From positions 2,507 through 66,506 of the forward strand of contig JAMCYU010000001.1 of the NCBI GenBank assembly GCA_023473585.1: a DNA stretch of 64,000 nucleotides, in the 5' to 3' direction. The stretch comes from Patescibacteria group bacterium (lineage in GTDB: Bacteria > Patescibacteriota > Microgenomatia > JAMCYU01). The notes beneath the pieces were generated by a model. The model saw nothing but the letters and a program-made list of their open reading frames with translations. It did not search any database and was not told where the DNA came from. Shown piece by piece: positions 4,638 through 61,505 of the stretch; position 1 is the stretch's first letter; each line of letters starts with the position of its first letter. The translations under genes and the position numbers were made by a program.

Positions 4638-4644
4638 AGAAAAA

Positions 4645-6937: not shown

Positions 6938-6954
6938 GAGTTAACTAGAAAAAA

Positions 6955-8202: not shown

Positions 8203-8204
8203 AA

Positions 8205-13661: not shown

Positions 13662-13719
13662 GAAGCTAATTATAGCATATTAAAGGTTATGGAAAAAACT
13701 TAAGATTTATCCTTCCTCA

Positions 13720-33234: not shown

Positions 33235-33235
33235 A

Positions 33236-38253: not shown

Positions 38254-39410
38254 TTCTCTTTAACAAATTCTTTGTATTCGCTCTGAAAAACTTTTTCCCA
38301 TTTATAGTCAGACAATTTATTCTGAAATTTTCTTTTTAAGAAATCTGCGGACAGAATATAATTAGCTACAGATGTCGCGTCTCCTTTTGGGAAAAGAACC
38401 AGTTGTCCGCTCTCGATAAATTTTTTGAAAACGTCGTGATATTCTGGAAGATTATAAGCAATAACCGGTTTATTGATAACCATGGCTTCTAAAACGGCAA
38501 TGGTCATTCCTTCAGCGTAGCTGGGAGATAAGAAAAAATCGCAATTTCTAAAAAGATCGCCCTTTTCTTTGCCTCTTTTATAACCGACAAAAATCATATT
38601 CTTTTCTAACTTGCAAGAACCGACCTTGTCTTTCAACGGTTTCTTATGATAAGAGGCTCCGTCACCCATAATCCCTAAAGTGAAATTTTTTCTTCGCCTA
38701 ACTATTTTTTTCATGATTTCCGCTAAGTCAAAAATTCCTTTGGCCGGGTGGAGTCTGGCCCCAAATAAAGCGTTAAACTTTGGGGTTTTTCCGGAAATTT
38801 TTCCACTAAAAATTTCCGGTTCGATGCCATAATAATCATTTGTTTTAATTACTTTTATTCCCCTTTTTTCATAATATTTTTTAAGATAATTAGGAACGAC
38901 AAAAATGGCATCGGTCTTTTTGAGAAGGAAATTTGAAAATAAAAAAGCAAGATATGGGACGGTTTTTAAGAAAAGACTACCGGGTCTTTCCTGTGGTTTA
39001 GGAACGGTATTGTCAACGTTAACATACCAACGTATTTTTTTATTTAACATTTTTATTAAAAAGGGAATAAAGATTAAATCCAAAGTTGATGACAGTGAAT
39101 AAATAATGTCAACACTTCCTTTGACTTCAAAAATCAAAGGAAGGGCCAGAATATTGACCTTTAAAAAATCTGTGATGGCAGAATAATATTCCTTGCTTTT
39201 CCATTTGAAAGAAAAGGTATGGTAAGTAATTTGTTTTACCTGGCTTTGATAAAATCGCTGCGCCTCCGACGAACAAAGAAGAGAAACTGCTAGGTCTCTT
39301 TTTTGCCAATACTTTATTCTTAAAATCATAGGAACGCGATTAACGCCCTTTGAATAGCTGGGGTCGCAAACCAATATTCGCAAATGTTTCTTTGGAAAAT
39401 TCTTTTTCAT
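38250..39410 (-). CDS. Glycosyltransferase family 4 (GT-B); paralog of 50651-51787
   Basis: C-domain …FFLSPSYAEGMTIAVLEAMVINKPVIAYNLPEYHDVF…. The N-terminus (…ILVCDPSYSKGVNRVPMILRIKYWQKRDLAVSL…) is closely similar to 50651-51787 (…ILVYDTNFVPGISRVIPVIKIKYWQKHDCQITI…). Confidence 0.7.
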   Translation of the reverse strand: MKKNFPKKHLRILVCDPSYSKGVNRVPMILRIKYWQKRDLAVSLLCSSEAQRFYQSQVKQITYHTFSFKWKSKEYYSAITDFLKVNILALPLIFEVKGSVDIIYSLSSTLDLIFIPFLIKMLNKKIRWYVNVDNTVPKPQERPGSLFLKTVPYLAFLFSNFLLKKTDAIFVVPNYLKKYYEKRGIKVIKTNDYYGIEPEIFSGKISGKTPKFNALFGARLHPAKGIFDLAEIMKKIVRRRKNFTLGIMGDGASYHKKPLKDKVGSCKLEKNMIFVGYKRGKEKGDLFRNCDFFLSPSYAEGMTIAVLEAMVINKPVIAYNLPEYHDVFKKFIESGQLVLFPKGDATSVANYILSADFLKRKFQNKLSDYKWEKVFQSEYKEFVKEN

Positions 39411-40858
39411 GATTTTATCAATAAACTCTTAAGACTTTTACTAATTATTCTTTTCATTAAAAAAATATCTGGTAAAACCGTTTTAAAATAAAATTTCATA
39501 TTTTGTAATAAGGCTGATTTCTCCATCTGATAAATTATCTTAAGATATTTTTTATGATAACGATATTTCGTATTTAAAAATATCCTGTCCTTTAAAAAAT
39601 CCGGTGGGTCTTTTTTAAAAAAATCAAGAAGATTTAAAGAAGGAAGTTGCACGAATAATTGACTGTATTCAATCTTGTCACTTAACAGTTTGTTTTCTTT
39701 TGAGTATTCCCAGATTTTCGTGCCCGGATAGGGTGTTAAAATATAGATATGGGTATTGTCCAAGGGGTATTTTTTCATAAACTCATAGGTTTTTTTAAGA
39801 TCGGCTAATGTTTCGCCTGGGGTTCCCACAATATACCCACTGCTACTGGTTAAATTATATTTTCGACAAAGAGTTACGGCTCTTTTATTATCGGCAACGG
39901 TGACGGAATTTTGCTTTAAATAATTTAAAATTCTTTCGGAGCCACTTTCTAATCCAAAGATTAATCGCTTAACGTTCATTTTTTTTAAAATTAAACAAAT
40001 TCTTTCATTAATAAGATTCGCCCTGGCATAACCAAAAAAGGTTAGCTTTTTATTTAAGCCATTTTTCTCTATTAATTCCGCCAATTTTTTAACGCGTTCT
40101 TCCGGAGCTATAAAAAGGTCATCCCAAAACATAATCCCGTCAATTTCATATTTATTTATCAGGTGTTTTATTTCTTTAAGAACGTATTCCGGTGAATGAA
40201 AACGCACTCTTCCCCATTGAACGGGAGAACCGCAAAAGACACAATGATATGGACACCCTCTTGAAGTCATAATCGTCGCCATCCTTCTTACCCCAAAAAG
40301 ATTTATTTGGTCTTTTAAATAAAATTCTTCCATGGGCACTAGTTCTCTGGCCGGAAATGGTAATTCGTCTATATTTTCTATCAACTCCCTTTTCCCAGTT
40401 TTAAATATCTTTGCGTTTTTGAGAAAAATAACGCCTTTTATCTTTTCTATTTTTTTTAAGGGAAACTTGTGATCCTTCTTATAAATCTCGATAAGCTCAA
40501 GAAGGGTTTTTTCCCCTTCACCGATAACGCCTAAATCAAAAACGGGGTCAAAAGATTCGGGTGAAGCGGAAATATGAATACCGCCAATAAATAAAAAAGC
40601 TTTTACTCTTTTCTTGATTTCTTTTGCGCTCTCTAGAGTTTTTTCAAACATCAAAGTGTCGCTCGTAAAGCCGATAATATCCGCGTTAGCCCTAATTATT
40701 TCAGGGATGGGGTTTTCTCCTTCAATAATCTTAACTTTTACCTCTGGTGATTTTTGCTTAATATGGGCAGCAAGAGATAAAAGACCAAAGTGAGGAGATT
40801 GAGCCGGAAACTTCCAAAAGTTTACAAGCAACAGCAAAATTTTAGTCTTTTTTTTCAT
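39407..40858 (-). CDS. B12-binding domain / radical SAM protein (class B radical SAM-like)
   Basis: 483 aa. N-terminal cobalamin-binding-like Rossmann region (…IGFTSDTLMFEKTLESAKEIKK…FLFIGGIH…). Radical SAM CxxxCxxC motif …MTSRGCPYHCVFCGSP…. Confidence 0.7.
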   Translation of the reverse strand: MKKKTKILLLLVNFWKFPAQSPHFGLLSLAAHIKQKSPEVKVKIIEGENPIPEIIRANADIIGFTSDTLMFEKTLESAKEIKKRVKAFLFIGGIHISASPESFDPVFDLGVIGEGEKTLLELIEIYKKDHKFPLKKIEKIKGVIFLKNAKIFKTGKRELIENIDELPFPARELVPMEEFYLKDQINLFGVRRMATIMTSRGCPYHCVFCGSPVQWGRVRFHSPEYVLKEIKHLINKYEIDGIMFWDDLFIAPEERVKKLAELIEKNGLNKKLTFFGYARANLINERICLILKKMNVKRLIFGLESGSERILNYLKQNSVTVADNKRAVTLCRKYNLTSSSGYIVGTPGETLADLKKTYEFMKKYPLDNTHIYILTPYPGTKIWEYSKENKLLSDKIEYSQLFVQLPSLNLLDFFKKDPPDFLKDRIFLNTKYRYHKKYLKIIYQMEKSALLQNMKFYFKTVLPDIFLMKRIISKSLKSLLIKS

Positions 40859-42902
40859 TTCTTTGGCCGGATAAAATGATGAGGGTTACCGCAGATATCA
40901 ATAATGTCAAAACAGTAATGGCCATGCCAAAAGAAAGATATTTTTGAGATGAATATTCCACGATAATATTTTTGTTTTTGTTTTCGTCAATTTTAAAACT
41001 ATTAAATCGATCATAAATTTTTTGCGATTTAATCTCTTTTCCATCGATCTTAACTTTCCATTGAGGATCATAATTTTCCGAAAAACCTAAAACTACGGGC
41101 TTATTGAAATTTTTAATCGTTACCAAATATTGCGTCGGATTAATCATCCGCCATTCTATAGAGCCATCCTCTTGCGTTAAGTTTTCTAACCAAAAACGGT
41201 CGGTAAAATTTTGCGTTTCATAAACAGCGCTTTTTTCAAATGTTTTTACCTTCCGAAAAGAAATAATTTTATCAAGACTTTTTTCCAGTTGGACTCGTGT
41301 GACGGAATCGTATTGTCTATCCTTGATAAAAAGCTCTTCCTCACTATCGTACGGCAGAATTACGTATTTTACTCCGGATAAAAAAAGTTCTCTTTCTCCT
41401 TCTTTGGTCTTTAATTTATCTACCACCGAAGAAGCGTTTTCTAAATTAAAAAAATAAAGACCGTCAATGGCTGGATGATTATCAGAGTAAAAAGCAAAAC
41501 GCTGTTTCTGTGGAATCCAAAAGGTTCTAAAAAAACCAGGTTGATCATTAATAAAATTCTTTAAGTCAACATATTCTCGTGGAATGATTTTGGGCTTAAA
41601 AGTCCCGTTCAATTCTCCGCTCCAGGCTGGTTTGATTAAAAGCAGCAAGCAGCAAGCCACAAGCAGCAAGAATAAACTTGGTATGTATTTTTTAAATTTT
41701 AACCATTCATATATTTTCCAAGTGCTGTATGGAATCAAAACGCTATAGGAAAGAGCCACGAGCGTATAAAATTTAGTCGAGTCCCTAAACATCACCATGC
41801 CCGGAAGATAGTTAAACAAACCTAAATAAATCTCACCGAATGGCCAATTACTGCCCTTGGCTAAAAACGCACCCGCCAGTCCCAAAATTACAAAAAATAT
41901 TATTACCGACTCGCTATCTGATCGAAAAGTCGTTTGTTTCTCTTCGCAGTTTTGAATTTTAACCTGTACTTTTGACTTTTGCTTCGTGACTTTTGACTTA
42001 TTAACAAAAAGCAAACTACTAAAGGCTAATATTGGTATAAAAAGGAACTCCCATTTCATAAAGTAACTCTTTCCGAAAATATTCTCTGGCCAGTTGGGAT
42101 GCAAAAGTGAAAGAGTGTTTTCAAGTTTGGCAAAGCTAAAAAAATTCACCGCGTCGCTGCTTGTATGCGCCAAAGACATTGAACCGGCAGGATTTTCAAA
42201 ATTAAAAAGAAAAGGCAGTAACCAAAAACCGTGGATACCCAAAATAATCAGTCCCGCCATTACTAAGAAAATGATTATTTTTTTGTAATTTTGCAAAAAT
42301 TGTCCGTAGAAAAAAAGACTGTAAAAAATTAAAAGACCCATCCCCAAATAGGCGATGCGAAAATCCCAGGCGACAAGGAGAGCAAGGATTAAGCCAAAGA
42401 TAATCGCTTTCTTTGCCGATGCTTTTTCCCAAAAACTAACAAAGACGGCCAGAGTTAACGGGATTAAAAGATAAGCCAAGACAACCGTTAATTGCCCGCC
42501 GCCCATAATCATTAAAAAATAGCTGTTAAGAAAAAAGATAAAAGAGGAAAGAAAGAAGAATTTTCTGGGAAAAAGCTTCAGTTGCCCGGCTAAAATTGCC
42601 GGGAAAAGAAGTCCGGAGAGAACAATGGGGAAAAACCATAATATCCTTTCTATTGTCGAATAAGAAAAAAATTTCCCTAAAAAACCCAAAGGGACGTTGT
42701 AAAAATATACACCCTGAAACAGCAAGGAGTTTCCTCCAAGCCCGGCATTTCTAAATGTCTCCCAAGAAAAGGGTAAATTAAAATATCCCACTATTTGCTC
42801 CGGATAAAAAAAACTCCAATCACCGGCCGTAATTAAACCACCAAAAAACCAATTCTTAAAAACAAAGAAAATAACAACCAATAATGCTAAAAACCCCATC
42901 AT
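40842..42902 (-). CDS. Giant polytopic membrane protein, paralog family A (GT-C-like; N-terminal ~13 TM domain, large extracytoplasmic C-terminal domain, terminal TM anchor)
   Basis: 686 aa. Shares with 43243-46620 and 46613-48688 the motifs KG.N.PFGE.Y (…AKGSNWPFGEIY…), FR..ST, and the C-terminal …IEY..Q…FG…TM helix. Contains two heptanucleotide tracts. Confidence 0.5.
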   Translation of the reverse strand: MMGFLALLVVIFFVFKNWFFGGLITAGDWSFFYPEQIVGYFNLPFSWETFRNAGLGGNSLLFQGVYFYNVPLGFLGKFFSYSTIERILWFFPIVLSGLLFPAILAGQLKLFPRKFFFLSSFIFFLNSYFLMIMGGGQLTVVLAYLLIPLTLAVFVSFWEKASAKKAIIFGLILALLVAWDFRIAYLGMGLLIFYSLFFYGQFLQNYKKIIIFLVMAGLIILGIHGFWLLPFLFNFENPAGSMSLAHTSSDAVNFFSFAKLENTLSLLHPNWPENIFGKSYFMKWEFLFIPILAFSSLLFVNKSKVTKQKSKVQVKIQNCEEKQTTFRSDSESVIIFFVILGLAGAFLAKGSNWPFGEIYLGLFNYLPGMVMFRDSTKFYTLVALSYSVLIPYSTWKIYEWLKFKKYIPSLFLLLVACCLLLLIKPAWSGELNGTFKPKIIPREYVDLKNFINDQPGFFRTFWIPQKQRFAFYSDNHPAIDGLYFFNLENASSVVDKLKTKEGERELFLSGVKYVILPYDSEEELFIKDRQYDSVTRVQLEKSLDKIISFRKVKTFEKSAVYETQNFTDRFWLENLTQEDGSIEWRMINPTQYLVTIKNFNKPVVLGFSENYDPQWKVKIDGKEIKSQKIYDRFNSFKIDENKNKNIIVEYSSQKYLSFGMAITVLTLLISAVTLIILSGQRNEKKD
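41641..41675 (-). repeat. Tandem heptanucleotides (AGCAGCA AGCAGCA AGCCACA AGCAGCA AGAATAA)
   Basis: Direct reading. Encodes …LLLVACCLLLLIK… in a TM segment. Confidence 0.75.
41968..42002 (-). repeat. Five tandem heptanucleotides (ACTTTTG ACTTTTG CTTCGTG ACTTTTG ACTTATT)
   Basis: Direct reading. Encodes …NKSKVTKQKSKVQVK…. Confidence 0.8.
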
Positions 42903-43246
42903 TTTTTTAACTTATTTCTCGCTTCCAAATAAAAATATTGCCACAGACCAAGACAAATAAAAAGAAATTCCCAAACGCTAAAGCGCTCAGCAAAAATCAT
43001 ATTTTTAAAAAGAAAAAACGGCACGGTCAAAATTAAACAAAGTAAGGCAAGGAAAAAGAAAAACTTTTCGCTGATTTTATAAATTACGCCAATTAATATC
43101 CAATAAAAAAGCAAAACCAGAAGAGCTTGCGAGTCAACGCTTGGATAAAAAGAAAGGTTAACGATAAGACCGCCAAGGCCCAGGGAAACAGCTAGTAATC
43201 GGTATTGACCAAGTTTTTCCTTAATCACTTTAAAAGTCTGTCTCAT
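42899..43246 (-). CDS. Small 4-TM membrane protein (possible GtrA-like lipid-linked sugar translocase)
   Basis: 115 aa. …YRLLAVSLGLGGLIVNLSFY… weakly resembles the GtrA-family N-terminal pattern (…VG..G..vN…). Start and stop overlap the neighbouring genes. Confidence 0.3.
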   Translation of the reverse strand: MRQTFKVIKEKLGQYRLLAVSLGLGGLIVNLSFYPSVDSQALLVLLFYWILIGVIYKISEKFFFFLALLCLILTVPFFLFKNMIFAERFSVWEFLFICLGLWQYFYLEARNKLKK

Positions 43247-46200
43247 TTCTTCCTCCTTTTAATTAATTGTAGTAAAGAAATCAAGCTTATTACCAGAAAG
43301 GCGACAAGAGAAACAATAATTCCCCACACAAACCATTTTTGAGGTTGGTATTCAATCGTTAATTCCCTGTCTTGGTTACTACTTTCAAGATACCACGCAT
43401 TAGCATAGCCGTTAACTAAATAATGATTCTTGTCCGTTAAAGATTTTTGACCATCATAGATTTTCCATCCCTGGTCATAGCTTTGAGAAAGAATTAGATA
43501 AAAAGGTTCGTTTGTTTTAAGAAGAGAAATTTTGTACTTGACCGGGCTTATTTTCGTGGATTCTAAAATAAGTCCCCCCGATAAATCTTCCTTTTTAATT
43601 TTGGACGCAAGAACAAGTTTGGGCAAGTAAACTTTGGTCAATTCAATATTATCAACTAAAACTTTGCCATCTTGAGAATATAAATAAATAAACGCCCCTA
43701 AACTTTCCCTGTCGGCTCTTAAAAGAACCTGATAGTTTTCAATTTTATCTAGTTGATCTCTTAAAAGAACAGTATCGGTCGGCAACCAGTCCCCAGCTAA
43801 TCTGTCAAAGAGATTTTTTCTTTCTTTAATAAGAAGGTTTAATTTTGAATCTTCCTTTAGTTTTTTAAAATTGATTTTTAAAAGATATAATTGATTTGGC
43901 TGCCAATCGCTTATTTCCTGAAGACTTATGGAAATTTCTTTTGGCAGATTGAGGTTTTCGTTAAGATTTTCAAAAAGCAGGCTGTTTAACTTATTACTGA
44001 TTAAATAGTTAGTGTTATAAAATTGCCATTTTTTCGGATCAAGCAAATTAACCGCTTGTCCCAAGTGTACCTTAAAAACGTTTGTTTTGGGTTCAAGTGT
44101 AAAGGTTCCCAAATCTTGTTTATTGATCTCTCCAAAAGAACTATTATTAAGGAAAAATTCTTTTTTCCCTTGGGAAAGAAAAAAAGATTGGTTATTACCA
44201 AAGTCAAGAGAAGCTTCGTATTGACCGAAAACCGGTGTTTTGATTTCGTATTCTAATTGAGAAAATTGTAAAGTAGGCTGAGAAAATTGTAAAGTAGGCA
44301 AAGCATTATTTGGTTTTATTTCTTTTAAGCTTTTAAACGCTTCTCTCCAGGAAGATAATTTTTCTTTATTCCAAAAAGCCGTAGTTTGGCTTAATTTCTC
44401 TATTTTTTCCTGATGCCTGTCTAAATATTCAACAACCAGTTCTAAATTGTCACGTTGATTCCCAAAGTCACCCGATAATTCGATCGCCTTATTTATTTTT
44501 TGTCCGTATCTTTTAAGATTGTCTTGCCACCACTGATTTTGCACTCCCCATTTTATTATCTCGCTTATTCTTTTCGTGGCGTAAAATAATTCTTTATCAA
44601 AAAGTTTCTTCTTATTTTTGACATTAATTTCTTCTTCTTTTTGCTCTTTTAACAAAACAATCTTGTAAAAAAAAGAGCCGGGATTAATTCTTACATAAGG
44701 ATAGAAAACCTCACCAAGATAATTTTCCTGTCCCAAGAAAAGCCGATAATAATTTCTTCCCTTCATATCGAAAGCGGCGTTTCTTGAAGAGCTTTCTATA
44801 ATGACGGAATTTGCGTCTTTCAAAAATTGCGTGTTCTTATCTTGGTCATCGCCTTCCTGATAAACCATGACTTCCTGTTTACGACTTAGTTTTGAGGCCG
44901 CTAAGAAAAGATTATTTTTGTTTCCTTGAAAATAAACAAGCTGTTTGGGTATGTAAATTGGGGGGGTCTGACAAGATGGTTCTACTTTAGTTAAATTGAA
45001 ATAATTATTGTTGATTAAATTTTCTCCCGGAAACGGCAACTGTCTTGTCTTCTCTTGCCCGGCTGCGTCTTTTTCCTCAACGACGTAACCGATATTGTAA
45101 AGAGAGGAAAAAAGACAAGCCTCTTGAGACGAAAAGCTCTCGGGGCTGGAAGGCAAATTCACGCCGCTGGTATGAATTAACGGTTTTTTAGTAAGCCAGC
45201 TTAAGATTGATTGACCGCTATAAAACCAATTTTTATGGACATAACCGTCGTTTAAAGGTAAAGACAAGACTTTATTGTCATCTTTTAACCCGTCAAGTTT
45301 ATCTCCTAATTGGAAATATTCGTTTGGAAGAGAAATCCCCTTTTGTTGAGAACCGCCACCAAAGGAATATTCCAATTTATAGCCTAAATAAATGGGGTGG
45401 AAAATTAAAAGATTGACTATTAATAAACCTATAAAGCCGTATTTCCATTTTTGCGATAAATAATAAGCGCAAATTGTTAAAAAGAAAGAGTAAAAAACAG
45501 CGCCGGCGATGATAACCGTTGAGGTGGTTCTAAAGAGCTTAAAAACCGGAATTTTAGTAAGCATTAATCTGTAAACCTCACCAAAAGGAGGATTCGGTCC
45601 TTTGGCAATGAAGATAAGAATGACTAAGGGAACTAAAAGAAAAAAAATAATTGTTTTCGCTTTTTTATCTTTAATAAAAATTGTTGTCAAAAGAGCGAAC
45701 AACCACAAAGAAAAAGTCCAAACAACAAAAATCGGGTTTGATAAAAATTGGCCAAGATTAGACTTCTTATCAATCAAATTAGAATTAAAAAATCTCATCG
45801 TGAAAGGAAGTGCGGCCGAATAAAGATCCGCGTTTCCGTCATAAACGGTAACCTCTTTTGAATATTGACCATAAATTCCCTTTGCTCCCAAAGTATCGTT
45901 AACGAAAGGAAGAAAAACAAAAGCGTTTAAAAGCAAGGTTAAAATCGATAAAAGAAAAAGTCTTTGAAAAAGTTTTATAACTGAAATTTTTTGAATATAA
46001 CCATAAGCTAAAACGAGGAAAAAGGCAGCCATACAAAAGGTAATTAAAAGTTTTGCCTGGGGAAGATCGGGAAAAAAAGAAATATTAACAAAAAACGAAA
46101 ACGGCAAAATATAAAAGGTTTTTTTGGTTTCAAGAAATTTTAAAAGAAAAAAAAGACAAATCGGAAAACCATATAGGGGAAGGGTCCCTACTAAAACGAG

Positions 46201-46620
46201 AATCGCTGCGGGATTAAGCAGGAAAAACAAAGCGGCAAATAAGGCTAGTTTATTTTGCTCGTATTTTGTTCCCTTAAAAAGGTTTTTATAGAGAAAATAG
46301 CAGCAAATAAATCCCAGGATATAAAAACAAACGGTAAAGATTTTAACGCCTAAATAGGCCGGAACACCAAGAGTCTTCAAAAAGAAAAATGGTAATTGCC
46401 AAAAAAGAAGCATGTATTTAAAAAAACTGAGGCCGTTATTTTGTTCTTCCCAAAGATACAAAGACCTTAAGAGATTATCTTGAGGTTTAAGAGGAAAAAT
46501 AAAATCTCCCCCAATATAAAAATTATTATCCCAAATAGACAAAATAAAGACAATTAAGATAATTATCGGAAGAAAATAAAAATAATTATTTTGACAAAAT
46601 CTGATCGCTTTTTTAATCAT
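43243..46620 (-). CDS. Giant polytopic membrane protein, paralog family A, with ~430-aa extra C-terminal extracytoplasmic extension
   Basis: 1125 aa. N-terminus …FYFLPIIILIVFILSIWDNNFYIGGDFIFPLKPQDNLLRSLYLWEEQNNGLSF… is nearly identical in pattern to 46613-48688. Shares …AKGPNPPFGEVY…FRTTSTV… and the C-terminal …IEYQPQKWFVWGIIVSLVAFLV anchor. Contains a perfect 21-nt tandem duplication (PTLQFSQ x2). Confidence 0.5.
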   Translation of the reverse strand: MIKKAIRFCQNNYFYFLPIIILIVFILSIWDNNFYIGGDFIFPLKPQDNLLRSLYLWEEQNNGLSFFKYMLLFWQLPFFFLKTLGVPAYLGVKIFTVCFYILGFICCYFLYKNLFKGTKYEQNKLALFAALFFLLNPAAILVLVGTLPLYGFPICLFFLLKFLETKKTFYILPFSFFVNISFFPDLPQAKLLITFCMAAFFLVLAYGYIQKISVIKLFQRLFLLSILTLLLNAFVFLPFVNDTLGAKGIYGQYSKEVTVYDGNADLYSAALPFTMRFFNSNLIDKKSNLGQFLSNPIFVVWTFSLWLFALLTTIFIKDKKAKTIIFFLLVPLVILIFIAKGPNPPFGEVYRLMLTKIPVFKLFRTTSTVIIAGAVFYSFFLTICAYYLSQKWKYGFIGLLIVNLLIFHPIYLGYKLEYSFGGGSQQKGISLPNEYFQLGDKLDGLKDDNKVLSLPLNDGYVHKNWFYSGQSILSWLTKKPLIHTSGVNLPSSPESFSSQEACLFSSLYNIGYVVEEKDAAGQEKTRQLPFPGENLINNNYFNLTKVEPSCQTPPIYIPKQLVYFQGNKNNLFLAASKLSRKQEVMVYQEGDDQDKNTQFLKDANSVIIESSSRNAAFDMKGRNYYRLFLGQENYLGEVFYPYVRINPGSFFYKIVLLKEQKEEEINVKNKKKLFDKELFYATKRISEIIKWGVQNQWWQDNLKRYGQKINKAIELSGDFGNQRDNLELVVEYLDRHQEKIEKLSQTTAFWNKEKLSSWREAFKSLKEIKPNNALPTLQFSQPTLQFSQLEYEIKTPVFGQYEASLDFGNNQSFFLSQGKKEFFLNNSSFGEINKQDLGTFTLEPKTNVFKVHLGQAVNLLDPKKWQFYNTNYLISNKLNSLLFENLNENLNLPKEISISLQEISDWQPNQLYLLKINFKKLKEDSKLNLLIKERKNLFDRLAGDWLPTDTVLLRDQLDKIENYQVLLRADRESLGAFIYLYSQDGKVLVDNIELTKVYLPKLVLASKIKKEDLSGGLILESTKISPVKYKISLLKTNEPFYLILSQSYDQGWKIYDGQKSLTDKNHYLVNGYANAWYLESSNQDRELTIEYQPQKWFVWGIIVSLVAFLVISLISLLQLIKRRKK
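44259..44300 (-). repeat. Perfect 21-nt tandem duplication (gagaaaattgtaaagtaggc[t/a]) x2, in frame
   Basis: Direct reading. Encodes PTLQFSQPTLQFSQ. Confidence 0.85.
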
Positions 46621-48688
46621 GTTTGGAAAGAACAGTTATGAGGCAGAAAATAACTGTCAAGATTGATATTATACCACCAATATAGAAAAATCGCTGCGGC
46701 CAATATTCGATTATCAAAACGTAATTTGTCTCGTTCCCAACGTCTTCGGGATTGATTTGCCAACCGTTAGTTTCGCCGCTGGCTAAAAAATGCCTTGAGT
46801 CTGCCAAATCTTGATTTTGGCCTTTCGCATTTTGAACTTGTATTTTCCACTCCGGACTGTAATTTTGCGCCAGGAAAAGAGTGTATGGGCAAGTTGCCCC
46901 CTGAACATTAACCAGATACCTCGTCGGATTAATCTTTCTAAAAGAAATCTTGGGATCGGAATTCGTTTTTTTTACAAAAACCGGCGGCAAGACGCATTCC
47001 GCTTTTACTTTTTTTAAAAGAAAAAATTTATCTTCGAAGATTTTATCCGCCGGAAAAGCAAGATTGCTATCGGCGTAATTGTCAATCGAGTCCTTTTCGT
47101 GCAGAAGATAACCGACATTACGAAATTTAAGCCATTGACAGGCTTCTTCTCTTGTCATTTTCTTCAAAAACTCATTCGCTTCAAGAGCGGTTTTGCCGGG
47201 AATAACGCTATGGCTATGAATCAAGTGTTTTTTTATGAGCCAATTAATAATTGAGGATCCTCTATAACCCCAGTCTTTATAACTATAACCGTCGTCCAAA
47301 GGCACAGAGAGAATCTTTGATTCATCGGCAAGAAAATTTATAAGTTTTGCCATCTGAAAATATTCTTTAGGAATACCTACCCCTTTTTGAAAAGCACTGC
47401 CACCGGGGTAGTTATATAATTTATATCCTAAATAGACAAAGTGAAAAACCAGAACATGAATCAAGATAAAGAAATAAAAAAACCTTTTTTGTTTTTTATA
47501 AAAAGCATAAAGCGATAAGCTCATTAAGAAAGCGAAAAATAGTGATCCGGCCACAACCACCGTTGACGAAGTTCTGAAAACTTTAAAAAAGGAAACGTTA
47601 AAAAGAAAATATTTATAAATTTCGCCGAAAGGAGGATTCGCTCCTTTGGCCAGAAAAAAATAAAAACACGTAAACGCCAGTAAAAGATAAATAATTTTTT
47701 TCTTATCCTTATCTTTTTCCAAAAAACAAAACCACAAAATAATAACCCAGATGAAAAAACTCCAAAGAAGAAAATAAGAACTGCTAAGTGTTTGCCCTAA
47801 TCGCGAAACGTCGTCAACTAAATTTGAATTATAAAACCGCATCGTAAAAGGCAAAGCCGCCGACGGCACATCGGCCATCCCGTTATATACGGTTACGCTT
47901 TGCGAGTATTGTTTAAAAACTCCTCTCCCGCCAAAAACGTCATTAATAAATGGGAGTAAAACAAAAGCGTTTAATAAAAAGACGATTATTGTTGCCGGAA
48001 AAAGAGTTTTAAAGACTTTCCAAAACGAAAGTTTGTTGAGAATTTTGTAAAGGATGACCAAAAAAAATAAACCGATAGAAAAAGTAATTAAGCTTTTCGC
48101 CTGGGGAAGATCCGATAAATAACCAAGATTGAAAAAGATTGTAAATGGCAAAAGAAAAAGAAGATTTTTTCTTTCCAGGTATTTTAAAAGAAAATAGGCG
48201 CAGACAGGAAAAGAATACAGGGGATGAAAACCTATCACCACTAAAATTGCCGATGGATTAAGGATAAAGATGATCGCTGTTATTAAAGCAAGGACTTTAT
48301 CGTCGTATTTTGTTTTCTTAAAGAGAACTCTGTAGGTTAAGTAGGTAAAAATAAATCCAACAACATAAAAAAGGATGATAACGATTTTAATGCCGACATC
48401 GGCGGGAATTTTAAATAAGGAAGAAATTAGAAAGGGGACGTGCCAAATTAAAAACATGTATCTAAAAAAACTTAAACCACTATTTTCTTCTTGCCAAAGA
48501 TAAAGAGCTTTCAGAATATTATTTTGCGGAGCAAGCGGGAAAATTAGATCTCCGCCGATATAAAAATTTCTATCCCAAATTGAAATAATAAAAATAACAA
48601 GAAGGATAAGCGGAAGAAAAAAGATATTATTTTTTTTAATTAGCTTTGTGAAGATTTTAAGCCAGTCATCTTTAATGGCAATTTTCAT
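46613..48688 (-). CDS. Giant polytopic membrane protein, paralog family A
   Basis: 691 aa. …FFLPLILLVIFIISIWDRNFYIGGDLIFPLAPQNNILKALYLWQEENSGLSF…, …AKGANPPFGEIY…FRTSSTVVV…, and C-terminal …IEYWPQRFFYIGGIISILTVIF. Its stop overlaps the start of 43243-46620 by 8 nt. Confidence 0.5.
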   Translation of the reverse strand: MKIAIKDDWLKIFTKLIKKNNIFFLPLILLVIFIISIWDRNFYIGGDLIFPLAPQNNILKALYLWQEENSGLSFFRYMFLIWHVPFLISSLFKIPADVGIKIVIILFYVVGFIFTYLTYRVLFKKTKYDDKVLALITAIIFILNPSAILVVIGFHPLYSFPVCAYFLLKYLERKNLLFLLPFTIFFNLGYLSDLPQAKSLITFSIGLFFLVILYKILNKLSFWKVFKTLFPATIIVFLLNAFVLLPFINDVFGGRGVFKQYSQSVTVYNGMADVPSAALPFTMRFYNSNLVDDVSRLGQTLSSSYFLLWSFFIWVIILWFCFLEKDKDKKKIIYLLLAFTCFYFFLAKGANPPFGEIYKYFLFNVSFFKVFRTSSTVVVAGSLFFAFLMSLSLYAFYKKQKRFFYFFILIHVLVFHFVYLGYKLYNYPGGSAFQKGVGIPKEYFQMAKLINFLADESKILSVPLDDGYSYKDWGYRGSSIINWLIKKHLIHSHSVIPGKTALEANEFLKKMTREEACQWLKFRNVGYLLHEKDSIDNYADSNLAFPADKIFEDKFFLLKKVKAECVLPPVFVKKTNSDPKISFRKINPTRYLVNVQGATCPYTLFLAQNYSPEWKIQVQNAKGQNQDLADSRHFLASGETNGWQINPEDVGNETNYVLIIEYWPQRFFYIGGIISILTVIFCLITVLSKHD

Positions 48689-48693
48689 ATAAG

Positions 48694-49728
48694 CTAAAGA
48701 TTCTCAAAAGTAGGAATTTTTATTTTAATAAACGCGTTAAATTTCCCGCTGCCAAAATAGAGTTTTTTAAGTATTTCCCCATCGGTGATTTTTCTTCTTT
48801 TTTGAATCCATCGGCGTTTTTGTAAAATACGTTTAATTTTTTTTACATTCCACCACCAGGCGGCTAGATATTGATAAGCCACTCTCCCCCGGCCGAAAAG
48901 AGAAAAAATAACTATTTCTACAACATTAATCACCAAATATATCGGTAAAATCCATATTAAAGTTAAGATTGAATAGTTTTTTAAAAAGTTGGTAATCGTA
49001 TTTCTTTCTCCTAAATAACGCCTCATGTAGGTCGTCCTGTATTTTTCCTCGCGCCTTATCCCCCCGCTTAATGATCCACCGCTGTAATGGTAAACCACTG
49101 CTTGCGGAACACTAATCAATGGAATTTTTAACAAATGAGCTTTCCAGGAAAGATCGATATCGTCACAAAATAAAAAAAGATCCGCGTCAAATTGACCCAA
49201 CTTCATAAAGGTTTTCTTGGGTAAGAAAATAGCCGTCCCGTCACAATAAAAGGGTGGTTTTGAATTTTGAGGGCAATCCGCATTATAGAGACGGTAAGGA
49301 AAACTGAAAATATCCAGACAGATACCGTCAAATAAGAATTCACCGCTGTCGTAGCGTTTTTGCCGGCAAAGAAGAAGAAAGTCTTTTTCTTTAATTTTTC
49401 TGGCTTTCTCTAAAAGACTTTGCAGACATTTTTTTTCTAACTTTGTGTCCGGCCCCAGAAAAAACAAATATTCTCCCGTTGCCTCTTTTACCCCCCAATT
49501 ATTACCCTCGGCATAGCCAATATTTTTCAAGGATTCAATAAGTTTGACTCGTAATTTACCTTGAGATTCTAAAATTATCTTTTTGATTTTTTCTTTTGTC
49601 TTGTCTTTTGATAGAGAATCGACGAAAATTACTTCTGTTTGATTATCTGTTTGCTCAATTATTGAACGATAATAACCGTCTAGGAATTTTAAAGAATTAT
49701 AAGTAACCGTGATGATTGAAGTTTTCAT
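48694..49728 (-). CDS. GT2 glycosyltransferase with C-terminal TM helices (GtrB/CsbB/DPM1-like polyprenyl-phosphate glycosyltransferase candidate)
   Basis: MKTSIITVTYNSLKFLDGYYRSI…EVIFVDSLSKDKT… GT-A N-terminus. C-terminal hydrophobic helices ILTLIWILPIYLVINVVEIVIFSLF. 344 aa. Confidence 0.65.
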   Translation of the reverse strand: MKTSIITVTYNSLKFLDGYYRSIIEQTDNQTEVIFVDSLSKDKTKEKIKKIILESQGKLRVKLIESLKNIGYAEGNNWGVKEATGEYLFFLGPDTKLEKKCLQSLLEKARKIKEKDFLLLCRQKRYDSGEFLFDGICLDIFSFPYRLYNADCPQNSKPPFYCDGTAIFLPKKTFMKLGQFDADLFLFCDDIDLSWKAHLLKIPLISVPQAVVYHYSGGSLSGGIRREEKYRTTYMRRYLGERNTITNFLKNYSILTLIWILPIYLVINVVEIVIFSLFGRGRVAYQYLAAWWWNVKKIKRILQKRRWIQKRRKITDGEILKKLYFGSGKFNAFIKIKIPTFENL

Positions 49729-50645
49729 TTACAAAAATAGTTTAGGGTTTTTTTAAGTCCTTCTTTTAAGGAAGTTTTAGCTTCCCAGTCGAGCTTTTTT
49801 TTAGCCAGGGAACTATCAAGAGAACTGCGACGCTGCTCTTTAAAAATGGAGGGTAGGTGTTTTTGAGGGAGAATAATCCTCGTCTGCTCGGTTATAAGGT
49901 CAAAAATCTCATTAATTGACGTTTCTTTACTCGTCCCGATATTTAAAACCTCATTAATGTTTTTTTCTAAAGCAAGAATATTTGCCGACACAATATCGTC
50001 AATAAAAATAAAATCCCTCGTTTGTTTGCCGTCACCGTTTATAAAAACGTTTCCTCCTCTAAAAAATTTTTTACTAAAAATAGCGATAACCCCACCCTCC
50101 CCATCAGGATCCTGTCTTGGCCCGTAGATATTGGCATAACGTAAAACAACAAAATTTAAACCGTAATTTTTAAAATAGAAACCAAGATATTTTTCGGCGG
50201 TAAGCTTATCAATACCATAGGGAGAAAGAGGTTGTTTCGGTTCATAATCTTCGGGCGTCGGCAAAACTTCTGTTTCTCCATAGACAGCGGAAGAAGAAGC
50301 AAAAATAACTTTTTTGAGATTATTCTTAATCCCCGCTTCTAAAAGATTTAAAAAGCCTAAAATATTAATCTCCGCATCCAAAAGAGGATTAAGAATCGAT
50401 TTTCGAGCGTTAATTTGAGCCGCGTGATGATTTAAAATTTCCGGTTTTTCTTTTACAAAAATCCTTTTAATTTCTTCGGTGTTTCTAATATCTGTCTTAT
50501 AAAATTTCGCCTTGGGATTAATATTTTCCTTTTTCCCATGCGCTAAATTGTCAATAACGATGACTTTATGACCAAGATCAATATACTTATCAACAAGATG
50601 CGAGCCGACAAATCCGGCTCCGCCGGTTATTAATATTTTACTCAT
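49725..50645 (-). CDS. NAD-dependent epimerase/dehydratase (extended SDR; UDP-sugar epimerase or decarboxylase-like)
   Basis: MSKILITGGAGFVGSHLVDKYIDLGHKVIVIDNL…, …SSSAVYGE…, …YANIYGPRQDP…. 306 aa. Confidence 0.7.
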   Translation of the reverse strand: MSKILITGGAGFVGSHLVDKYIDLGHKVIVIDNLAHGKKENINPKAKFYKTDIRNTEEIKRIFVKEKPEILNHHAAQINARKSILNPLLDAEINILGFLNLLEAGIKNNLKKVIFASSSAVYGETEVLPTPEDYEPKQPLSPYGIDKLTAEKYLGFYFKNYGLNFVVLRYANIYGPRQDPDGEGGVIAIFSKKFFRGGNVFINGDGKQTRDFIFIDDIVSANILALEKNINEVLNIGTSKETSINEIFDLITEQTRIILPQKHLPSIFKEQRRSSLDSSLAKKKLDWEAKTSLKEGLKKTLNYFCK

Positions 50646-50650
50646 TTTTG

Positions 50651-51787
50651 TTAAACTGCCCTCATAACTTCCAGTTCTTTTTTGACAATTCTGTCCCAGG
50701 TAAAATCTTTTAACGAATTATGAAATAAGTTCTTCTTTTTTTCTCGTTTTAAAATAAAATCAGCAATCGCTTTCAGATCTTTTTGCCTGAACAAAACAAG
50801 CTGACCGCTTTTTAAATAGTTGTTAAAAACTTCATGATAAATCGGCAAATCATAGGCAAGCACCAACTTATTACAAGCAAAGGCTTCAATGACAGCATGG
50901 GGACAACCCTCATCATAACTTAAAAACAAAAAAAAGCCACAATTACGGTAGATGTCCCCTTTTCCCCTGCCGGTTTTATAACCGAAAAATAAGAAATTCT
51001 TGTCTAGATTATACTCTTTAATTTTTCCGAAAAAATTATTCTTGGTTTTTTCGTCGCCATCCCCAAGAATCCCGATCGTGAAATTGGGGTTTTTCTGAGT
51101 TACAATCCTTGCAACTTCAACTAAATCCATAATCCCCTTAGCAAGATGCAGCCTTCCACAGTACAAAGCGTCAAATTTGGGGGCCTTCTTGTTAATTTTT
51201 CCCGTGAAGATCTCCGTTTCTATACCGTAGCCATTGTTTGTTTTGATAACATTTTTCATTCCATTTTTTTGATAATAATTTTTAAGAAAGTCGGTCACGA
51301 CAAAAATCCCGTCAGCTTTTTTTAACAACCAATCGCCAAGCTTAAAAGCTAAATACGGAATAAGGTTTTTAAGATAGGCTCCCGGTCTTTCCCCTGGTCC
51401 AGGCACAATGTTGTCTACCATCACAAACCACTTAATCCGTTTGTCAAGGTTTTTTAAAACCCACGGAACAAATAAAAAGTCGATAACTGAAGACTGTGAA
51501 TAAACAATATCGTACTTTCCAAACACCTCTTTTATCTTTAAAATAGCCAGAAAATTAACCTTAATTACTTCCCAAATTAAAGAATACGGATTTTTAACTT
51601 TGTATTTGAAATCTAGAGAAAGGTAATTTAAACCCCCGAGTTTACTTTTGTAAAAAAATTCCGCGTCTTTTGTCCCGAAAATTGTTATTTGACAATCATG
51701 TTTTTGCCAGTATTTTATTTTGATGACAGGAATAACCCTGCTTATTCCGGGGACAAAATTGGTATCGTAAACTAAAATTTTCAGCAT
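50651..51787 (-). CDS. Glycosyltransferase family 4 (GT-B); paralog of 38250-39410
   Basis: C-domain …FFLFLSYDEGCPHAVIEAFACNKLVLAYDLPIYHEVF…. The N-terminus is paralogous to 38250-39410. Confidence 0.7.
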   Translation of the reverse strand: MLKILVYDTNFVPGISRVIPVIKIKYWQKHDCQITIFGTKDAEFFYKSKLGGLNYLSLDFKYKVKNPYSLIWEVIKVNFLAILKIKEVFGKYDIVYSQSSVIDFLFVPWVLKNLDKRIKWFVMVDNIVPGPGERPGAYLKNLIPYLAFKLGDWLLKKADGIFVVTDFLKNYYQKNGMKNVIKTNNGYGIETEIFTGKINKKAPKFDALYCGRLHLAKGIMDLVEVARIVTQKNPNFTIGILGDGDEKTKNNFFGKIKEYNLDKNFLFFGYKTGRGKGDIYRNCGFFLFLSYDEGCPHAVIEAFACNKLVLAYDLPIYHEVFNNYLKSGQLVLFRQKDLKAIADFILKREKKKNLFHNSLKDFTWDRIVKKELEVMRAV

Positions 51788-52944
51788 ATTTTTTTGAATA
51801 TCTCTAAATATTCGGCGGCGGCATTATTCCAGTTAAATTGACGGGTATGCCGCCTGGTTAAATCTAAATAATCATTGAATTTTTCATTATCCCAGGCCAA
51901 AACTTCATCAATTTTTTTCGTGATACTTTCTTCTTTTTGAGGATCAAAAAGCAAATTTTGATTGCCTATGACTTCAGGCAGGGCGCCGGCATTAGAACAA
52001 ATGGGCAAACAACCACAGGCAGAAGACTCCAGAATCGGCAGACCAAAACCCTCTTCAAAAGAAGGAAAAATAAAAAGCTTCGCAAAAGAATAAAGAACTC
52101 TTAATTCTTCTTTGGAAACAAAACCTAAAAACTTAACTTTTTTAGTTAAATTCATTTCTTCAAGATATTCCTTAAGTTTAGCGATTGTAAAATCTGGCAA
52201 CAACCCGCAAATAATCAACTGATAACCATCAAATTGTTTTATCTCTTTGAAAGCGTTGATTAGGCCAAAAATGTTTTTCCGTTCGTGGTTCGTGGCGTTG
52301 GTAAAAATAAACTTTTCATGTATTTGATACTTTTTCACAAGTTCTGAAAAGACGACTTCGTCTTTCTTCGGAAAGAAAAAGTTGTCTCTGCCCGGATAAA
52401 TGACTTGGATTTTCTTAGGTTCTGCCCGATAAACTTTTTCCAATTGTTTTTTTACAAAAAAAGAGTCGACGACAATACAATCGGCCCTTTTAATAACAAA
52501 CGGCATAAGAGTTTTCATATACATCACTAAATTCATGTAAATTCTTAACGGGTTGTGAGGATATTTTAAGAAACTTAAATCGTGGATTACGGTTAAAAAC
52601 TTAACTCCCTTGGGTTTAAAAAGAGGAAGGACAAAACTTGGGCTTAAGAAAATTTTAACCTTATAGTCTTTGATCAATTTTAAAACATATAAATTATCAA
52701 AAAAAATATTGACCAGTCTTGTGTCTATTCTCCTTAATAATTTTAGAAAAGAAGAGTCCGCCTTAATATAAGAGGCTATTTTCCCTAATCTTTTGTTGCC
52801 GGTCGAAAAAAAATAATATTTGTGCCCTTTGTCTTTTTGAAGAAGCGCCGTAAAAAGTCCGGCAATATAATTTTGGATTCCCGACGGTTTTTCTTCAAAC
52901 ATGCGAAGATTAACACCAATTAGGTCTTTTTGGCAACTGTCCAC
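51781..52944 (-). CDS. Glycosyltransferase family 4 (GT-B)
   Basis: …FIFPSFEEGFGLPILESSACGCLPICSNAGALPEVIG… (E-X7-E). 387 aa. Confidence 0.75.
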   Translation of the reverse strand: MDSCQKDLIGVNLRMFEEKPSGIQNYIAGLFTALLQKDKGHKYYFFSTGNKRLGKIASYIKADSSFLKLLRRIDTRLVNIFFDNLYVLKLIKDYKVKIFLSPSFVLPLFKPKGVKFLTVIHDLSFLKYPHNPLRIYMNLVMYMKTLMPFVIKRADCIVVDSFFVKKQLEKVYRAEPKKIQVIYPGRDNFFFPKKDEVVFSELVKKYQIHEKFIFTNATNHERKNIFGLINAFKEIKQFDGYQLIICGLLPDFTIAKLKEYLEEMNLTKKVKFLGFVSKEELRVLYSFAKLFIFPSFEEGFGLPILESSACGCLPICSNAGALPEVIGNQNLLFDPQKEESITKKIDEVLAWDNEKFNDYLDLTRRHTRQFNWNNAAAEYLEIFKKIC

Positions 52945-54153: not shown

Positions 54154-54164
54154 AAATTTCTTCC

Positions 54165-59343: not shown

Positions 59344-59346
59344 TGT

Positions 59347-61499: not shown

Positions 61500-61505
61500 A
61501 AAAGA

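What the first reader, a model, noticed from the sequence alone, without database searches (positions are those of the whole stretch)
40842..49728. Tandem trio of giant paralogous polytopic membrane proteins with a GtrA-like small membrane protein and a GtrB/CsbB-like GT2: candidate lipid-linked extracytoplasmic glycosylation module of a possibly undescribed GT-C-like family
Three consecutive genes of 686, 1125 and 691 aa share several features:
- a ~13-TM N-terminal domain (…IGGD.IFPL.PQ.N…LYLW…)
- a strictly conserved loop motif KG.N.PFGE.Y followed by FR..ST
- a large extracytoplasmic beta-rich domain
- a conserved C-terminal …IEY.PQ… plus TM anchor

The middle copy carries a ~430-aa extension with an in-frame 21-nt duplication. 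They are flanked by a GT2 with C-terminal TM helices and a 115-aa 4-TM protein. That combination is the architecture of GtrA/GtrB/GtrC and CsbB/YfhO systems, which decorate surface polymers outside the membrane using polyprenyl-phosphate sugars.

I cannot place the giant proteins in a named family from sequence alone; YfhO, AftD/DUF3367 and DUF6541 are candidates. Triplication suggests three acceptor or linkage specificities.
Basis: partly seen in the sequence, partly recalled or inferred. Interest (0 to 1): 0.7.

Follow-up and report, generated by a model that had tools for sequence, protein, structure and literature searches.

The report
AftD-like membrane glycosyltransferase paralogs, Patescibacteria
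Three neighbouring giant membrane proteins of an uncultured Patescibacteria bacterium are distant relatives of the mycobacterial cell-wall enzyme AftD. They most likely add sugars to a surface glycan outside the membrane, so this is a poorly annotated branch of a known enzyme class and not a new kind of system.

Summary
Five co-directional genes on the minus strand encode a GT2 (344 aa), A (691 aa), B (1125 aa), a 115-aa four-helix membrane protein, and C (686 aa). A and B are 47% identical (E 1e-175). A and C are 23% identical (E 7e-18).

The family is large: 12,907 clusters at 50% identity. The named relatives are almost all Patescibacteria.

B–small–C is a conserved, translationally coupled cassette. 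A is an extra B-like copy.

- The 344-aa GT2 is a generic WbbL/COG1216-like enzyme.
- The small protein shows no GtrA signal. Elsewhere it is the C-terminal domain of a longer membrane protein.

However, a true ArnC/GtrB-type synthase follows C in six more distant loci.

Verdict: a divergent, uncharacterised AftD-like GT-C module within a ~45-kb surface-glycan island. Interest is moderate.

The parts
48694..49728 (-). GT2 glycosyltransferase, 344 aa, with one C-terminal hydrophobic segment (residues 251-281). It is WbbL/COG1216-like, not ArnC/GtrB-like.
   Evidence: PF00535 at E 1e-21. NCBIfam EpsD, TuaG and rhamnosyltransferase TIGR01556 over residues 8-270. Best PDB match is TarS at E 2e-6, with no GtrB or ArnC hit. 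Orthologues occur upstream of the cassette in L001, L002, L003 and L006.
46613..48688 (-). Protein A, 691 aa. An AftD-like GT-C glycosyltransferase: 11 TM helices, a periplasmic alpha/beta plus beta-sandwich domain, and a C-terminal TM helix. It is a B-like copy that lacks the insertion.
48548..48550 (-). Codon of Asp47 of A (GGD, first extracytoplasmic loop), the candidate catalytic or donor-binding acid. Equivalent codons are B Asp39 at 46504-46506 and C Asp28 at 42819-42821.
   Evidence: Invariant in A2 and in A8, and at least 90% conserved in A4. Coordinates. It lies within about 2 residues of the extrapolated position of AftD K39/D41.
47561..47647 (-). Loop between TM9 and TM10 of A, carrying KGANPPFGEIY ... 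FRTSST. It corresponds to EL5 of AftD. Equivalent regions are 45517-45603 in B and 41772-41858 in C.
   Evidence: One search gives coordinates. The Arg is invariant in A2, A4 and A8 and aligns with an Arg of AftD in the sequence PLRNVHK.
43243..46620 (-). Protein B, 1125 aa. An AftD-like GT-C enzyme with the length typical of its clade (1100-1250 aa).
   Evidence: The profile search lists about 150 best representatives, mostly 1100-1270 aa. The A4 profile, whose first row is B, hits AftD at E 8.6e-12 over profile positions 42-574.
43636..44943 (-). Insertion of ~435 aa in B relative to A (residues ~560-995). It contains a helical DUF5667-like segment followed by a beta-rich, possibly carbohydrate-binding part.
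   Evidence: define the boundaries. DUF5667 is weak in B (E 0.012) and reaches E 2e-8 in relatives. CBM_4_9 hits 2 of 41 relatives. The A4 profile gives a weak hit to a hyaluronate-lyase CBM (E 0.0012). The segment alone has no PDB hit.
44258..44299 (-). Perfect in-frame 21-nt tandem duplication (PTLQFSQ twice) inside B's insertion.
   Evidence: TRF reports 2.0 copies at 100% identity. Only a single copy is present in P0006 and P0007.
42899..43246 (-). Small four-helix membrane protein, 115 aa, the conserved partner encoded between B and C. Its start and stop codons overlap its neighbours (ATGA).
   Evidence: 51 homologues of 101-119 aa, none with a Pfam domain. Present between the B-type and C-type genes in L001-L006 and L019. 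AF2 model has four helices, pLDDT 84.7.
40842..42902 (-). Protein C, 686 aa. A GT-C paralogue of a separate and more widespread clade. It retains a Lys (K377, FRDSTK) at the position of AftD K361.
   Evidence: More than 777 homologues. Invariant D28, K349, G350, P354, R373, D374, T376 and K377. Weak hits to the YfhO and PgfM2 C-termini and to MmpA. Identical to NCBI MCL5095150.1 from a Patescibacteria MAG.

Best explanation
A, B and C are polytopic GT-C-fold glycosyltransferases of a divergent clade related to mycobacterial AftD (Pfam PF11847/DUF3367). The clade is found mainly in Patescibacteria.

Each protein has 11 TM helices, an extracytoplasmic domain, and one C-terminal TM anchor. The inferred active site faces outward. 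It is formed by an invariant Asp in the first external loop (A D47, B D39, C D28) and by the conserved TM9-TM10 loop (KG.N.PFGE...FR).

The proteins most likely transfer a sugar from a polyprenyl-phosphate-linked donor onto a surface glycan. That glycan would be assembled by the many cytoplasmic GT4 and GT2 enzymes and by the priming phosphoglycosyltransferase of the same ~45-kb island.

B, the small protein and C form an ancient, translationally coupled cassette. The small four-helix protein is probably an accessory membrane subunit, not a GtrA-type flippase. A is a later duplicate of the B type that lacks the CBM-like insertion.

What is shown: fold, homology, paralogy, cassette conservation and gene context. 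What is inferred: catalytic activity, donor type, acceptor, and complex formation.
For: Fold:
- Next come Pmt4, ALG12, STT3B, AglB, AftA, ArnT, PglB, AftB, PIG-M, DPY19, ALG3, PimE and ALG6.
- Foldseek finds AftD at E 5.7e-8, then OST, PglB, ArnT and AftA.

Sequence homology:
- The A4 profile hits AftD at E 8.6e-12 over AftD chain positions 45-569.
- PF11847 is hit by 11 of 41 B-type relatives and 3 of 39 C-type relatives.

Conserved residues:
- The EL1 Asp and the loop Arg are invariant or nearly so across three alignments.

Cassette:
- B-small-C, with or without A, occurs in L001-L006 and L019.
- A B/A-type gene, a 315-348-aa small-domain protein and a C-type gene occur in that order in L020, L021 and L023.
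- Start and stop codons overlap by ATGA.

Donor context:
- A full-length ArnC/GtrB-type GT2 (ArnC E 6.5e-46; GtrB E 5e-34) lies just downstream of the C-type gene in L005, L019, L020, L021, L022 and L023.

Island context:
- The island holds a Bac_transf phosphoglycosyltransferase, GT4s, GT2s, epimerases, DegT, an acetyltransferase, methyltransferases, a Wzy_C-like protein and a PMT_2-like protein.
Against: - None of A, B or C reaches the Pfam cut-off for PF11847 or YfhO.
- The A2 profile gave only E 0.42 against AftD, and the C-type profile gave no PDB hit.
- Of the five residues essential in AftD, D474/E475 align with Ser/Ser in A and Gln/Ser in B. That region is missing from C.
- The K361 equivalent is present only in C.
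- E251 aligns with a variable loop.
- No ArnC/GtrB-type donor synthase, no recognisable flippase and no DPA-pathway gene is present in the 64-kb window.
- No biochemical data exist for any member of the clade.
Confidence: 0.7

Rival explanations
1. The proteins use polyprenyl-diphosphate-linked oligosaccharides, not polyprenyl-phosphate monosaccharides. They would then act as en-bloc transferases, polymerases or ligases, in the manner of oligosaccharyltransferases or Wzy/WaaL. That would explain why this clade has no ArnC/GtrB-type synthase next to the cassette.
For: - STT3, AglB and PglB are among the best structural matches.
- The island encodes a priming Bac_transf phosphoglycosyltransferase and many cytoplasmic GT4 and GT2 enzymes, which would build a PP-linked oligosaccharide.
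- No ArnC/GtrB-like gene lies in the window, L001, L002/L003 or L006.
Against: - AftD, a Pren-P-monosaccharide user, is clearly the closest in both fold and sequence.
- In six related loci an ArnC/GtrB-type synthase directly follows the C-type gene.
- The island already has a separate Wzy_C-like protein of 997 aa.
Confidence: 0.15
2. The acceptor is protein, not polysaccharide. The system would be an O- or N-glycosylation system for S-layer, pilin or adhesin proteins, analogous to streptococcal PgfS/PgfM1/PgfE/PgfM2 or to PMT/OST.
For: - C matches the C-terminus of PgfM2 (E 9e-10) and of YfhO. The GT2 weakly matches PgfS (E 1.7e-6). An epimerase lies immediately upstream.
- Pmt4, STT3 and PglB are strong structural neighbours.
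Against: - All these hits are far below the family cut-offs. PgfM2 scores 37 bits against a cut-off of 1500, and PgfS scores 27 against 500.
- B-type members carry CBM-like insertions. In AftD, Emb and GT136 enzymes such modules bind glycan acceptors.
Confidence: 0.1
3. One or more of the paralogues are non-catalytic scaffolds or lipid-transport factors, like MmpA (NCgl2761/Rv0226c). MmpA shares the AftD N-terminal membrane domain but has no known transferase activity.
For: - C hits the NCBIfam MmpA model (E 2e-10, residues 331-481).
- MmpA is reported to be homologous to AftD residues 1-668 (PMC8698533).
- AftD D474/E475 are not conserved, and A and B lack the K361 equivalent.
Against: - The MmpA score is 39.8 bits against a cut-off of 210.
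- The EL1 Asp and the EL5 loop motif are invariant in each clade, which indicates selection on an outward-facing site.
- The context is glycan biosynthesis, not mycolate biosynthesis.
Confidence: 0.05

Closest known systems
AftD (Rv0236c; M. abscessus structures 6W98/6WBX; Pfam PF11847 GT-C_AftD/DUF3367)
   Same: - It is the best structural and sequence relative.
- Both have an 11-TM GT-C domain followed by an extracytoplasmic domain.
- Both have a conserved acidic residue in EL1 and a conserved TM9-TM10 loop with an aligned Arg. C also has the aligned Lys.
- B has CBM-like additions.
   Different: - Sequence identity is about 10-12%.
- The window proteins are below the Pfam threshold.
- They have a single C-terminal TM helix in place of AftD's five-TM, ACP-binding bundle.
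- They carry at most one CBM-like insertion, against three CBMs in AftD.
- AftD D474/E475 are not conserved.
- No DPA-pathway genes are present.
- The host is Patescibacteria, not Actinobacteria.
YfhO / CsbB / GtcA (Gram-positive LTA and WTA glycosylation) and streptococcal PgfM2
   Same: - All are GT-C enzymes with a C-terminal beta-sandwich plus a final TM helix. C matches the last ~75 positions of the YfhO model and the PgfM2 C-terminus.
- NCBI names protein A 'YfhO family protein'.
- The concept of a GT2 synthase, a small membrane protein and a GT-C enzyme is shared.
   Different: - No N-terminal YfhO match.
- Scores are below cut-off: 22.2 against 28.5 bits for C, and no hit for A or B.
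- The window has no CsbB/GtrB-type GT2 and no GtrA/GtcA-family protein.
Gtr seroconversion modules (GtrA/GtrB/GtrC) and GT136 three-component pentofuranose systems (PMC11127046)
   Same: The logic is shared: a lipid-linked donor made inside the cell and used by a GT-C enzyme outside it. In six related loci an ArnC/GtrB-type synthase is adjacent to the cassette.
   Different: - There are two or three large AftD-like GT-C enzymes instead of one.
- The small partner is neither GtrA, SMR nor MATE by any test run here.
- The synthase is missing from this window.
EmbA/EmbB/EmbC
   Same: Both are paralogous GT-C enzymes encoded side by side, with CBM-bearing extracytoplasmic domains. EmbA and EmbB form a heterodimer, which is a model for a possible B-C complex.
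   Different: - The match is only at superfamily level (Foldseek E 0.17, probability 0.38).
- The TM count and the position of the domains differ.

Membership tests
GT-C fold glycosyltransferase superfamily | Polytopic N-terminal membrane domain whose fold superposes on solved GT-C enzymes | tested here: met
GT-C fold glycosyltransferase superfamily | Conserved acidic residue in the first extracytoplasmic loop | tested here: met
   Asp (A D47, B D39, C D28) is invariant in A2 and A8 and at least 90% conserved in A4. It sits just after TM1 in the model.
GT-C fold glycosyltransferase superfamily | Uses a polyprenyl-(di)phosphate-linked sugar donor at the outer face of the membrane | not testable with these tools
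   Only contextual evidence is available. An ArnC/GtrB-type synthase is adjacent in six related loci and absent from this window.
AftD family (Pfam PF11847, GT-C_AftD/DUF3367) | Match to the PF11847 model at or above the gathering score | tested here: not met
   No PF11847 hit for A, B or C at E<=1. Relatives do hit it: 11 of 41 B-type (best E 1.6e-15) and 3 of 39 C-type.
AftD family (Pfam PF11847, GT-C_AftD/DUF3367) | Detectable sequence homology to the AftD GT-C domain | tested here: met
   The A4 profile hits 6W98/6WBX at E 8.6e-12 over ~530 residues. The narrower A2 profile gave only E 0.42.
AftD family (Pfam PF11847, GT-C_AftD/DUF3367) | Residues essential in AftD: K39, D41, E251, K361, D474 | tested here: inconclusive
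   An EL1 Asp is present, but the alignment does not reach AftD 39-41. The K361 equivalent exists only in C (K377). E251 falls in a variable loop. D474/E475 align with S478/S479 in A and Q/S in B.
AftD family (Pfam PF11847, GT-C_AftD/DUF3367) | Three CBMs plus a C-terminal five-TM, four-helix bundle that binds acyl carrier protein | tested here: not met
   Each protein has a single C-terminal TM helix. Only B has an insertion, and that is at most weakly CBM-like.
AftD family (Pfam PF11847, GT-C_AftD/DUF3367) | Arabinofuranosyl transfer from decaprenyl-phospho-arabinose, with DPA-pathway genes in the genome | tested here: not met
   Among the ORFs of at least 100 aa scanned against Pfam across the window, none was of UbiA/DPPR-synthase or DprE1/E2 type. 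The activity itself is not testable here, and the rest of the genome was not seen.
YfhO family (Pfam PF09586) | Match to PF09586 at or above the gathering score (28.5 bits) | tested here: not met
   C scores 22.2 bits, covering only model positions 761-835. A and B have no hit. 2 of 39 C-type relatives hit at E<=0.01. The NCBI name 'YfhO family protein' for A was not reproduced.
Gtr / CsbB-GtcA-YfhO three-component glycosylation system | Adjacent GtrB/CsbB/ArnC-type polyprenyl-phosphate GT2 with two C-terminal TM helices | tested here: not met
   The window GT2 has its best PDB match to TarS (E 2e-6), no GtrB or ArnC hit, and one TM segment. No window ORF matches the L019 ArnC-like protein at E<1e-15. 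The feature is met in related loci L005 and L019-L023.
Gtr / CsbB-GtcA-YfhO three-component glycosylation system | GtrA-family (PF04138) small flippase | tested here: not met
MmpA (NCBIfam NF053599) | Score at or above the model cut-off (210 bits) | tested here: not met
   C scores 39.8 bits over residues 331-481 only.

The most novel reading that the evidence does not exclude
B, the small membrane protein and C assemble into a heteromeric, outward-facing glycan synthase. This would be a core envelope machine of Patescibacteria and the main uncharacterised branch of the AftD lineage (about 13,000 clusters at 50% identity). It would be the first defined cell-envelope glycopolymer pathway of the candidate phyla radiation. 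It would also show that AftD-type enzymes are not an actinobacterial speciality. The small four-helix protein would be a new kind of obligatory GT-C subunit.
Probability: 0.25. Interest if true: 0.65.

Novelty: new variant of a known kind. Interest (0 to 1): 0.45.

Why it matters
Patescibacteria are a very large, almost entirely uncultured radiation, and the chemistry of their envelope is essentially unknown.

This work shows three things:
- Their abundant 'hypothetical' giant membrane proteins are AftD-like GT-C enzymes.
- These proteins occur as a conserved B-small-C cassette.
- In many genomes the cassette sits beside an ArnC/GtrB-type lipid-sugar synthase.

This gives a concrete annotation for thousands of genes and a testable model for how these cells build or decorate a surface glycan. 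It also extends the known range of the AftD lineage beyond Actinobacteria.

It does not reveal a new mechanism. GT-C enzymes in glycan loci are expected.

Tried and rejected
- Single-sequence searches of A, C and P0032 against PDB sequences found nothing meaningful.
- The first family profile (A2) reached AftD only at E 0.42. A broader profile (A4) was needed.
- The C-type profile alone (A8) found no PDB match.
- B's insertion alone found no PDB match.
A5 worked.
- The GtrB/CsbB hypothesis for the 344-aa GT2 was rejected. Four other GT2s in the window are also generic.
- MmpA and PgfM2 membership was rejected because scores are far below cut-off.
- There are no tRNA, tmRNA or Rfam hits in the window.
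- A literature search for DUF3367, and for Patescibacteria with GT-C, found no characterisation of this clade.
Full report
**1. What is in the sequence**

Window positions 40842-49728 carry five co-directional minus-strand ORFs:

| Gene | Coordinates | Length |
|---|---|---|
| GT2 | 48694-49728 | 344 aa |
| A | 46613-48688 | 691 aa |
| B | 43243-46620 | 1125 aa |
| small protein | 42899-43246 | 115 aa |
| C | 40842-42902 | 686 aa |

- Neighbouring genes overlap: A/B by 8 nt, B/small and small/C by the 4-nt ATGA, and C with the next gene by 17 nt. This suggests one operon with translational coupling.
- A and B are 47% identical over 561 residues (E 1e-175), and their C-terminal modules also match.
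- A and C are 23% identical (E 7e-18).
- B differs from A mainly by an insertion of ~435 residues (B 560-995; window 43636-44943).
- Inside that insertion is a perfect 21-nt tandem duplication (44258-44299). The closest homologues lack it, so it is a recent slippage event of no obvious importance.
KG.N.PFGE.Y and the following FR occur in all three proteins. IGGD.IFPL.PQ occurs only in A and B, and only the Asp is shared with C.

**2. Fold and family**

No window protein passes a Pfam or NCBIfam cut-off. C gives sub-threshold hits to the last 75 positions of YfhO, to the C-terminus of PgfM2 and to MmpA.

Structure:
- An AlphaFold2 model of A, built on 29 homologues, is confident (pLDDT 84.4, pTM 0.87).
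- It has 11 TM helices, an alpha/beta plus beta-sandwich extracytoplasmic domain (421-662) and a final TM helix.
- Foldseek agrees, with AftD at E 5.7e-8.

Sequence:
- A narrow family profile reached AftD only at E 0.42.
- A profile of 41 diverse B-type representatives reached it at E 8.6e-12 over ~530 residues.
- PF11847 is hit directly by 11 of 41 B-type and 3 of 39 C-type relatives.

The proteins are therefore remote homologues of AftD, not merely fold analogues. NCBI annotates A as 'YfhO family protein' and the others as hypothetical. I could not reproduce a YfhO match for A.

**3. Size and distribution**

- An exhaustive profile search found 12,907 clusters at 50% identity with E<=1e-3, and 4,487 with E<=1e-30. 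The best 150 are mostly 1100-1270 aa, like B.
- C-type proteins (~650-730 aa) are a separate and abundant clade, with more than 777 hits.
- Named sources are Patescibacteria: Collierbacteria, Woesebacteria, Shapirobacteria, Parcubacteria and 'Patescibacteria group bacterium'. Distant hits occur in archaeal MAGs.
- C is identical to MCL5095150.1 from a Patescibacteria MAG.

**4. Conserved cassette**

- In L001, L004, L005 and L006 the order is A-type, B, small, C.
- In L002/L003 and L019 it is B, small, C.
- In L020, L021 and L023 the order is a shorter B/A-type protein (748-779 aa), then a 315-348-aa protein, then C.
- The C-terminal ~100 residues of that 315-348-aa protein match the small-protein profile (E 2e-9 to 5e-5).

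B-type and C-type are thus an old heterotypic pair with a membrane partner between them. A is a later B-like duplicate.

The small protein has 51 homologues without any Pfam domain. It models as four helices. It gives no GtrA hit and only generic structural matches. Because it is homologous to the membrane domain of a longer protein with an apparently extracytoplasmic domain, an accessory subunit seems more likely than a flippase. This is an inference.

**5. The GT2 question**

- The window's 344-aa GT2 has a full-domain match to rhamnosyltransferase and EpsD-type models.
- Its best solved relatives are TarS, heparosan synthase and TarP. DPMS scores only E 0.005, and GtrB and ArnC are absent from the hits.
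- It has one hydrophobic segment. Its orthologues accompany the cassette in L001, L002, L003 and L006.
- By contrast, in L005, L019, L020, L021, L022 and L023 a 308-338-aa GT2 with two C-terminal TM helices follows the C-type gene.
- The L019 copy matches ArnC at E 6.5e-46 and GtrB at E 5e-34 over its full length.
- No such gene exists anywhere in the 64-kb window. The four other GT2s are generic.

**6. Active-site comparison**

Five AftD residues were shown to be essential: K39, D41, E251, K361 and D474 (bioRxiv 10.1101/2019.12.22.885152). I used the alignment, in which chain numbering equals native numbering plus 3.

| AftD residue | Finding in the window proteins |
|---|---|
| Arg three to four residues before K361 | Aligns with the Arg that is invariant in all my alignments |
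| K361 | Aligns with K377 of C, which is invariant in the C clade. A and B have Thr there |
| D474/E475 | Align with Ser/Ser in A and Gln/Ser in B |
| E251 | Falls in a variable loop |
| K39/D41 | The invariant EL1 Asp lies within about two residues of their extrapolated position, but the alignment does not cover it |

The outward-facing site is thus conserved within each clade but only partly shared with AftD.

**7. Context**

- Positions 727-16568 hold a dcw/peptidoglycan cluster.
- From ~19.5 kb to beyond 63 kb lies a glycan island. It encodes DUF4012, a Bac_transf priming transferase, nucleotidyl transferases, several GT4 and GT2 enzymes, a PMT_2-like GT-C, a 997-aa Wzy_C-like protein, DUF2079, epimerases/dehydratases, DegT, an acetyltransferase, a methyltransferase, a B12-radical-SAM enzyme and a TPP enzyme.
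- GC content falls to 0.34-0.35 across 38-56 kb.

**8. Verdict**

The GT-C assignment is correct and AftD is the closest family, but the GtrA and GtrB labels are wrong for this window.
- The most likely function is extracytoplasmic glycosylation or elongation of a surface glycan from a lipid-linked donor, by a B-small-C complex plus an extra paralogue. Donor and acceptor are unknown.
- This is a divergent, uncharacterised variant of a known enzyme kind. It is useful for annotating Patescibacteria but not mechanistically surprising.

Noticed in passing
window 727-16568 (minus strand): A complete dcw/peptidoglycan cluster: FtsW, MurD, MraY, MurF, Ddl, a GlmU-like protein, MurA, MurB, MurC, a PBP transpeptidase and RsmH. 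It lies directly beside the glycan island.
   Followed up: partly
window 27979-33318; also L002, L005, L019, L021, L022: A second conserved module: a GT2 (~290-325 aa), then a ~1000-aa Wzy_C-like membrane protein (29373-32366), then a PMT_2-like GT-C (27979-29376). It recurs downstream of the cassette in five related loci.
   Followed up: partly
window 39407-40858: A B12-binding radical SAM enzyme overlaps the 3' end of gene C by 17 nt. It was seen only here and in the closest relative, L001. It may be a sugar C-methylase.
   Followed up: no
window 36826-38253 (+ strand): A DUF2079 polytopic membrane protein (E 1e-44). It is the only plus-strand gene in this stretch and is also present in L001.
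   Followed up: no
window 35057-35608 and 25420-25944; L005, L019, L021, L022: Short ORFs of 174-191 aa carry only the N-terminal Glyco_transf_4 domain. Each sits next to an ORF with the Glycos_transf_1 domain. This recurring split-GT4 arrangement appears across related loci.
   Followed up: no
window 19570-64000: No Wzx/MOP flippase or ABC exporter was recognised among the ORFs of at least 100 aa scanned against Pfam in the glycan island. A Bac_transf priming transferase (21547-22185) and a Wzy_C-like protein are nevertheless present.
   Followed up: partly
L002 15798-16007, L005 10884-11105, L019 16690-16911, L020 10048-10254, L021 10199-10408, L022 10921-11148, L023 10127-10336: A conserved 68-75-aa ORF lies just downstream of the C-type gene or of the adjacent ArnC/GtrB-like GT2. 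Most copies weakly resemble half of the small four-helix protein (E 6e-5 to 8e-3). No counterpart exists in the window.
   Followed up: partly
window 38000-56000: GC content drops to 0.34-0.35, against 0.39-0.45 in the first 36 kb. This is typical of variable surface-glycan loci.
   Followed up: no
window 57544-62285: A TPP-dependent enzyme, a class I/II aminotransferase, a 4,6-dehydratase-like enzyme and a nucleotidyl transferase sit in a row. This suggests synthesis of an unusual, possibly branched or amino, nucleotide sugar. Related loci carry a split transketolase at this place.
   Followed up: no
L020 and L023 (flanks): In two distant genomes the cassette sits next to CarS-like, DAGK and CDP-alcohol phosphatidyltransferase genes and to ribosomal protein genes S7/S12. 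This hints at a core-genome location.
   Followed up: no
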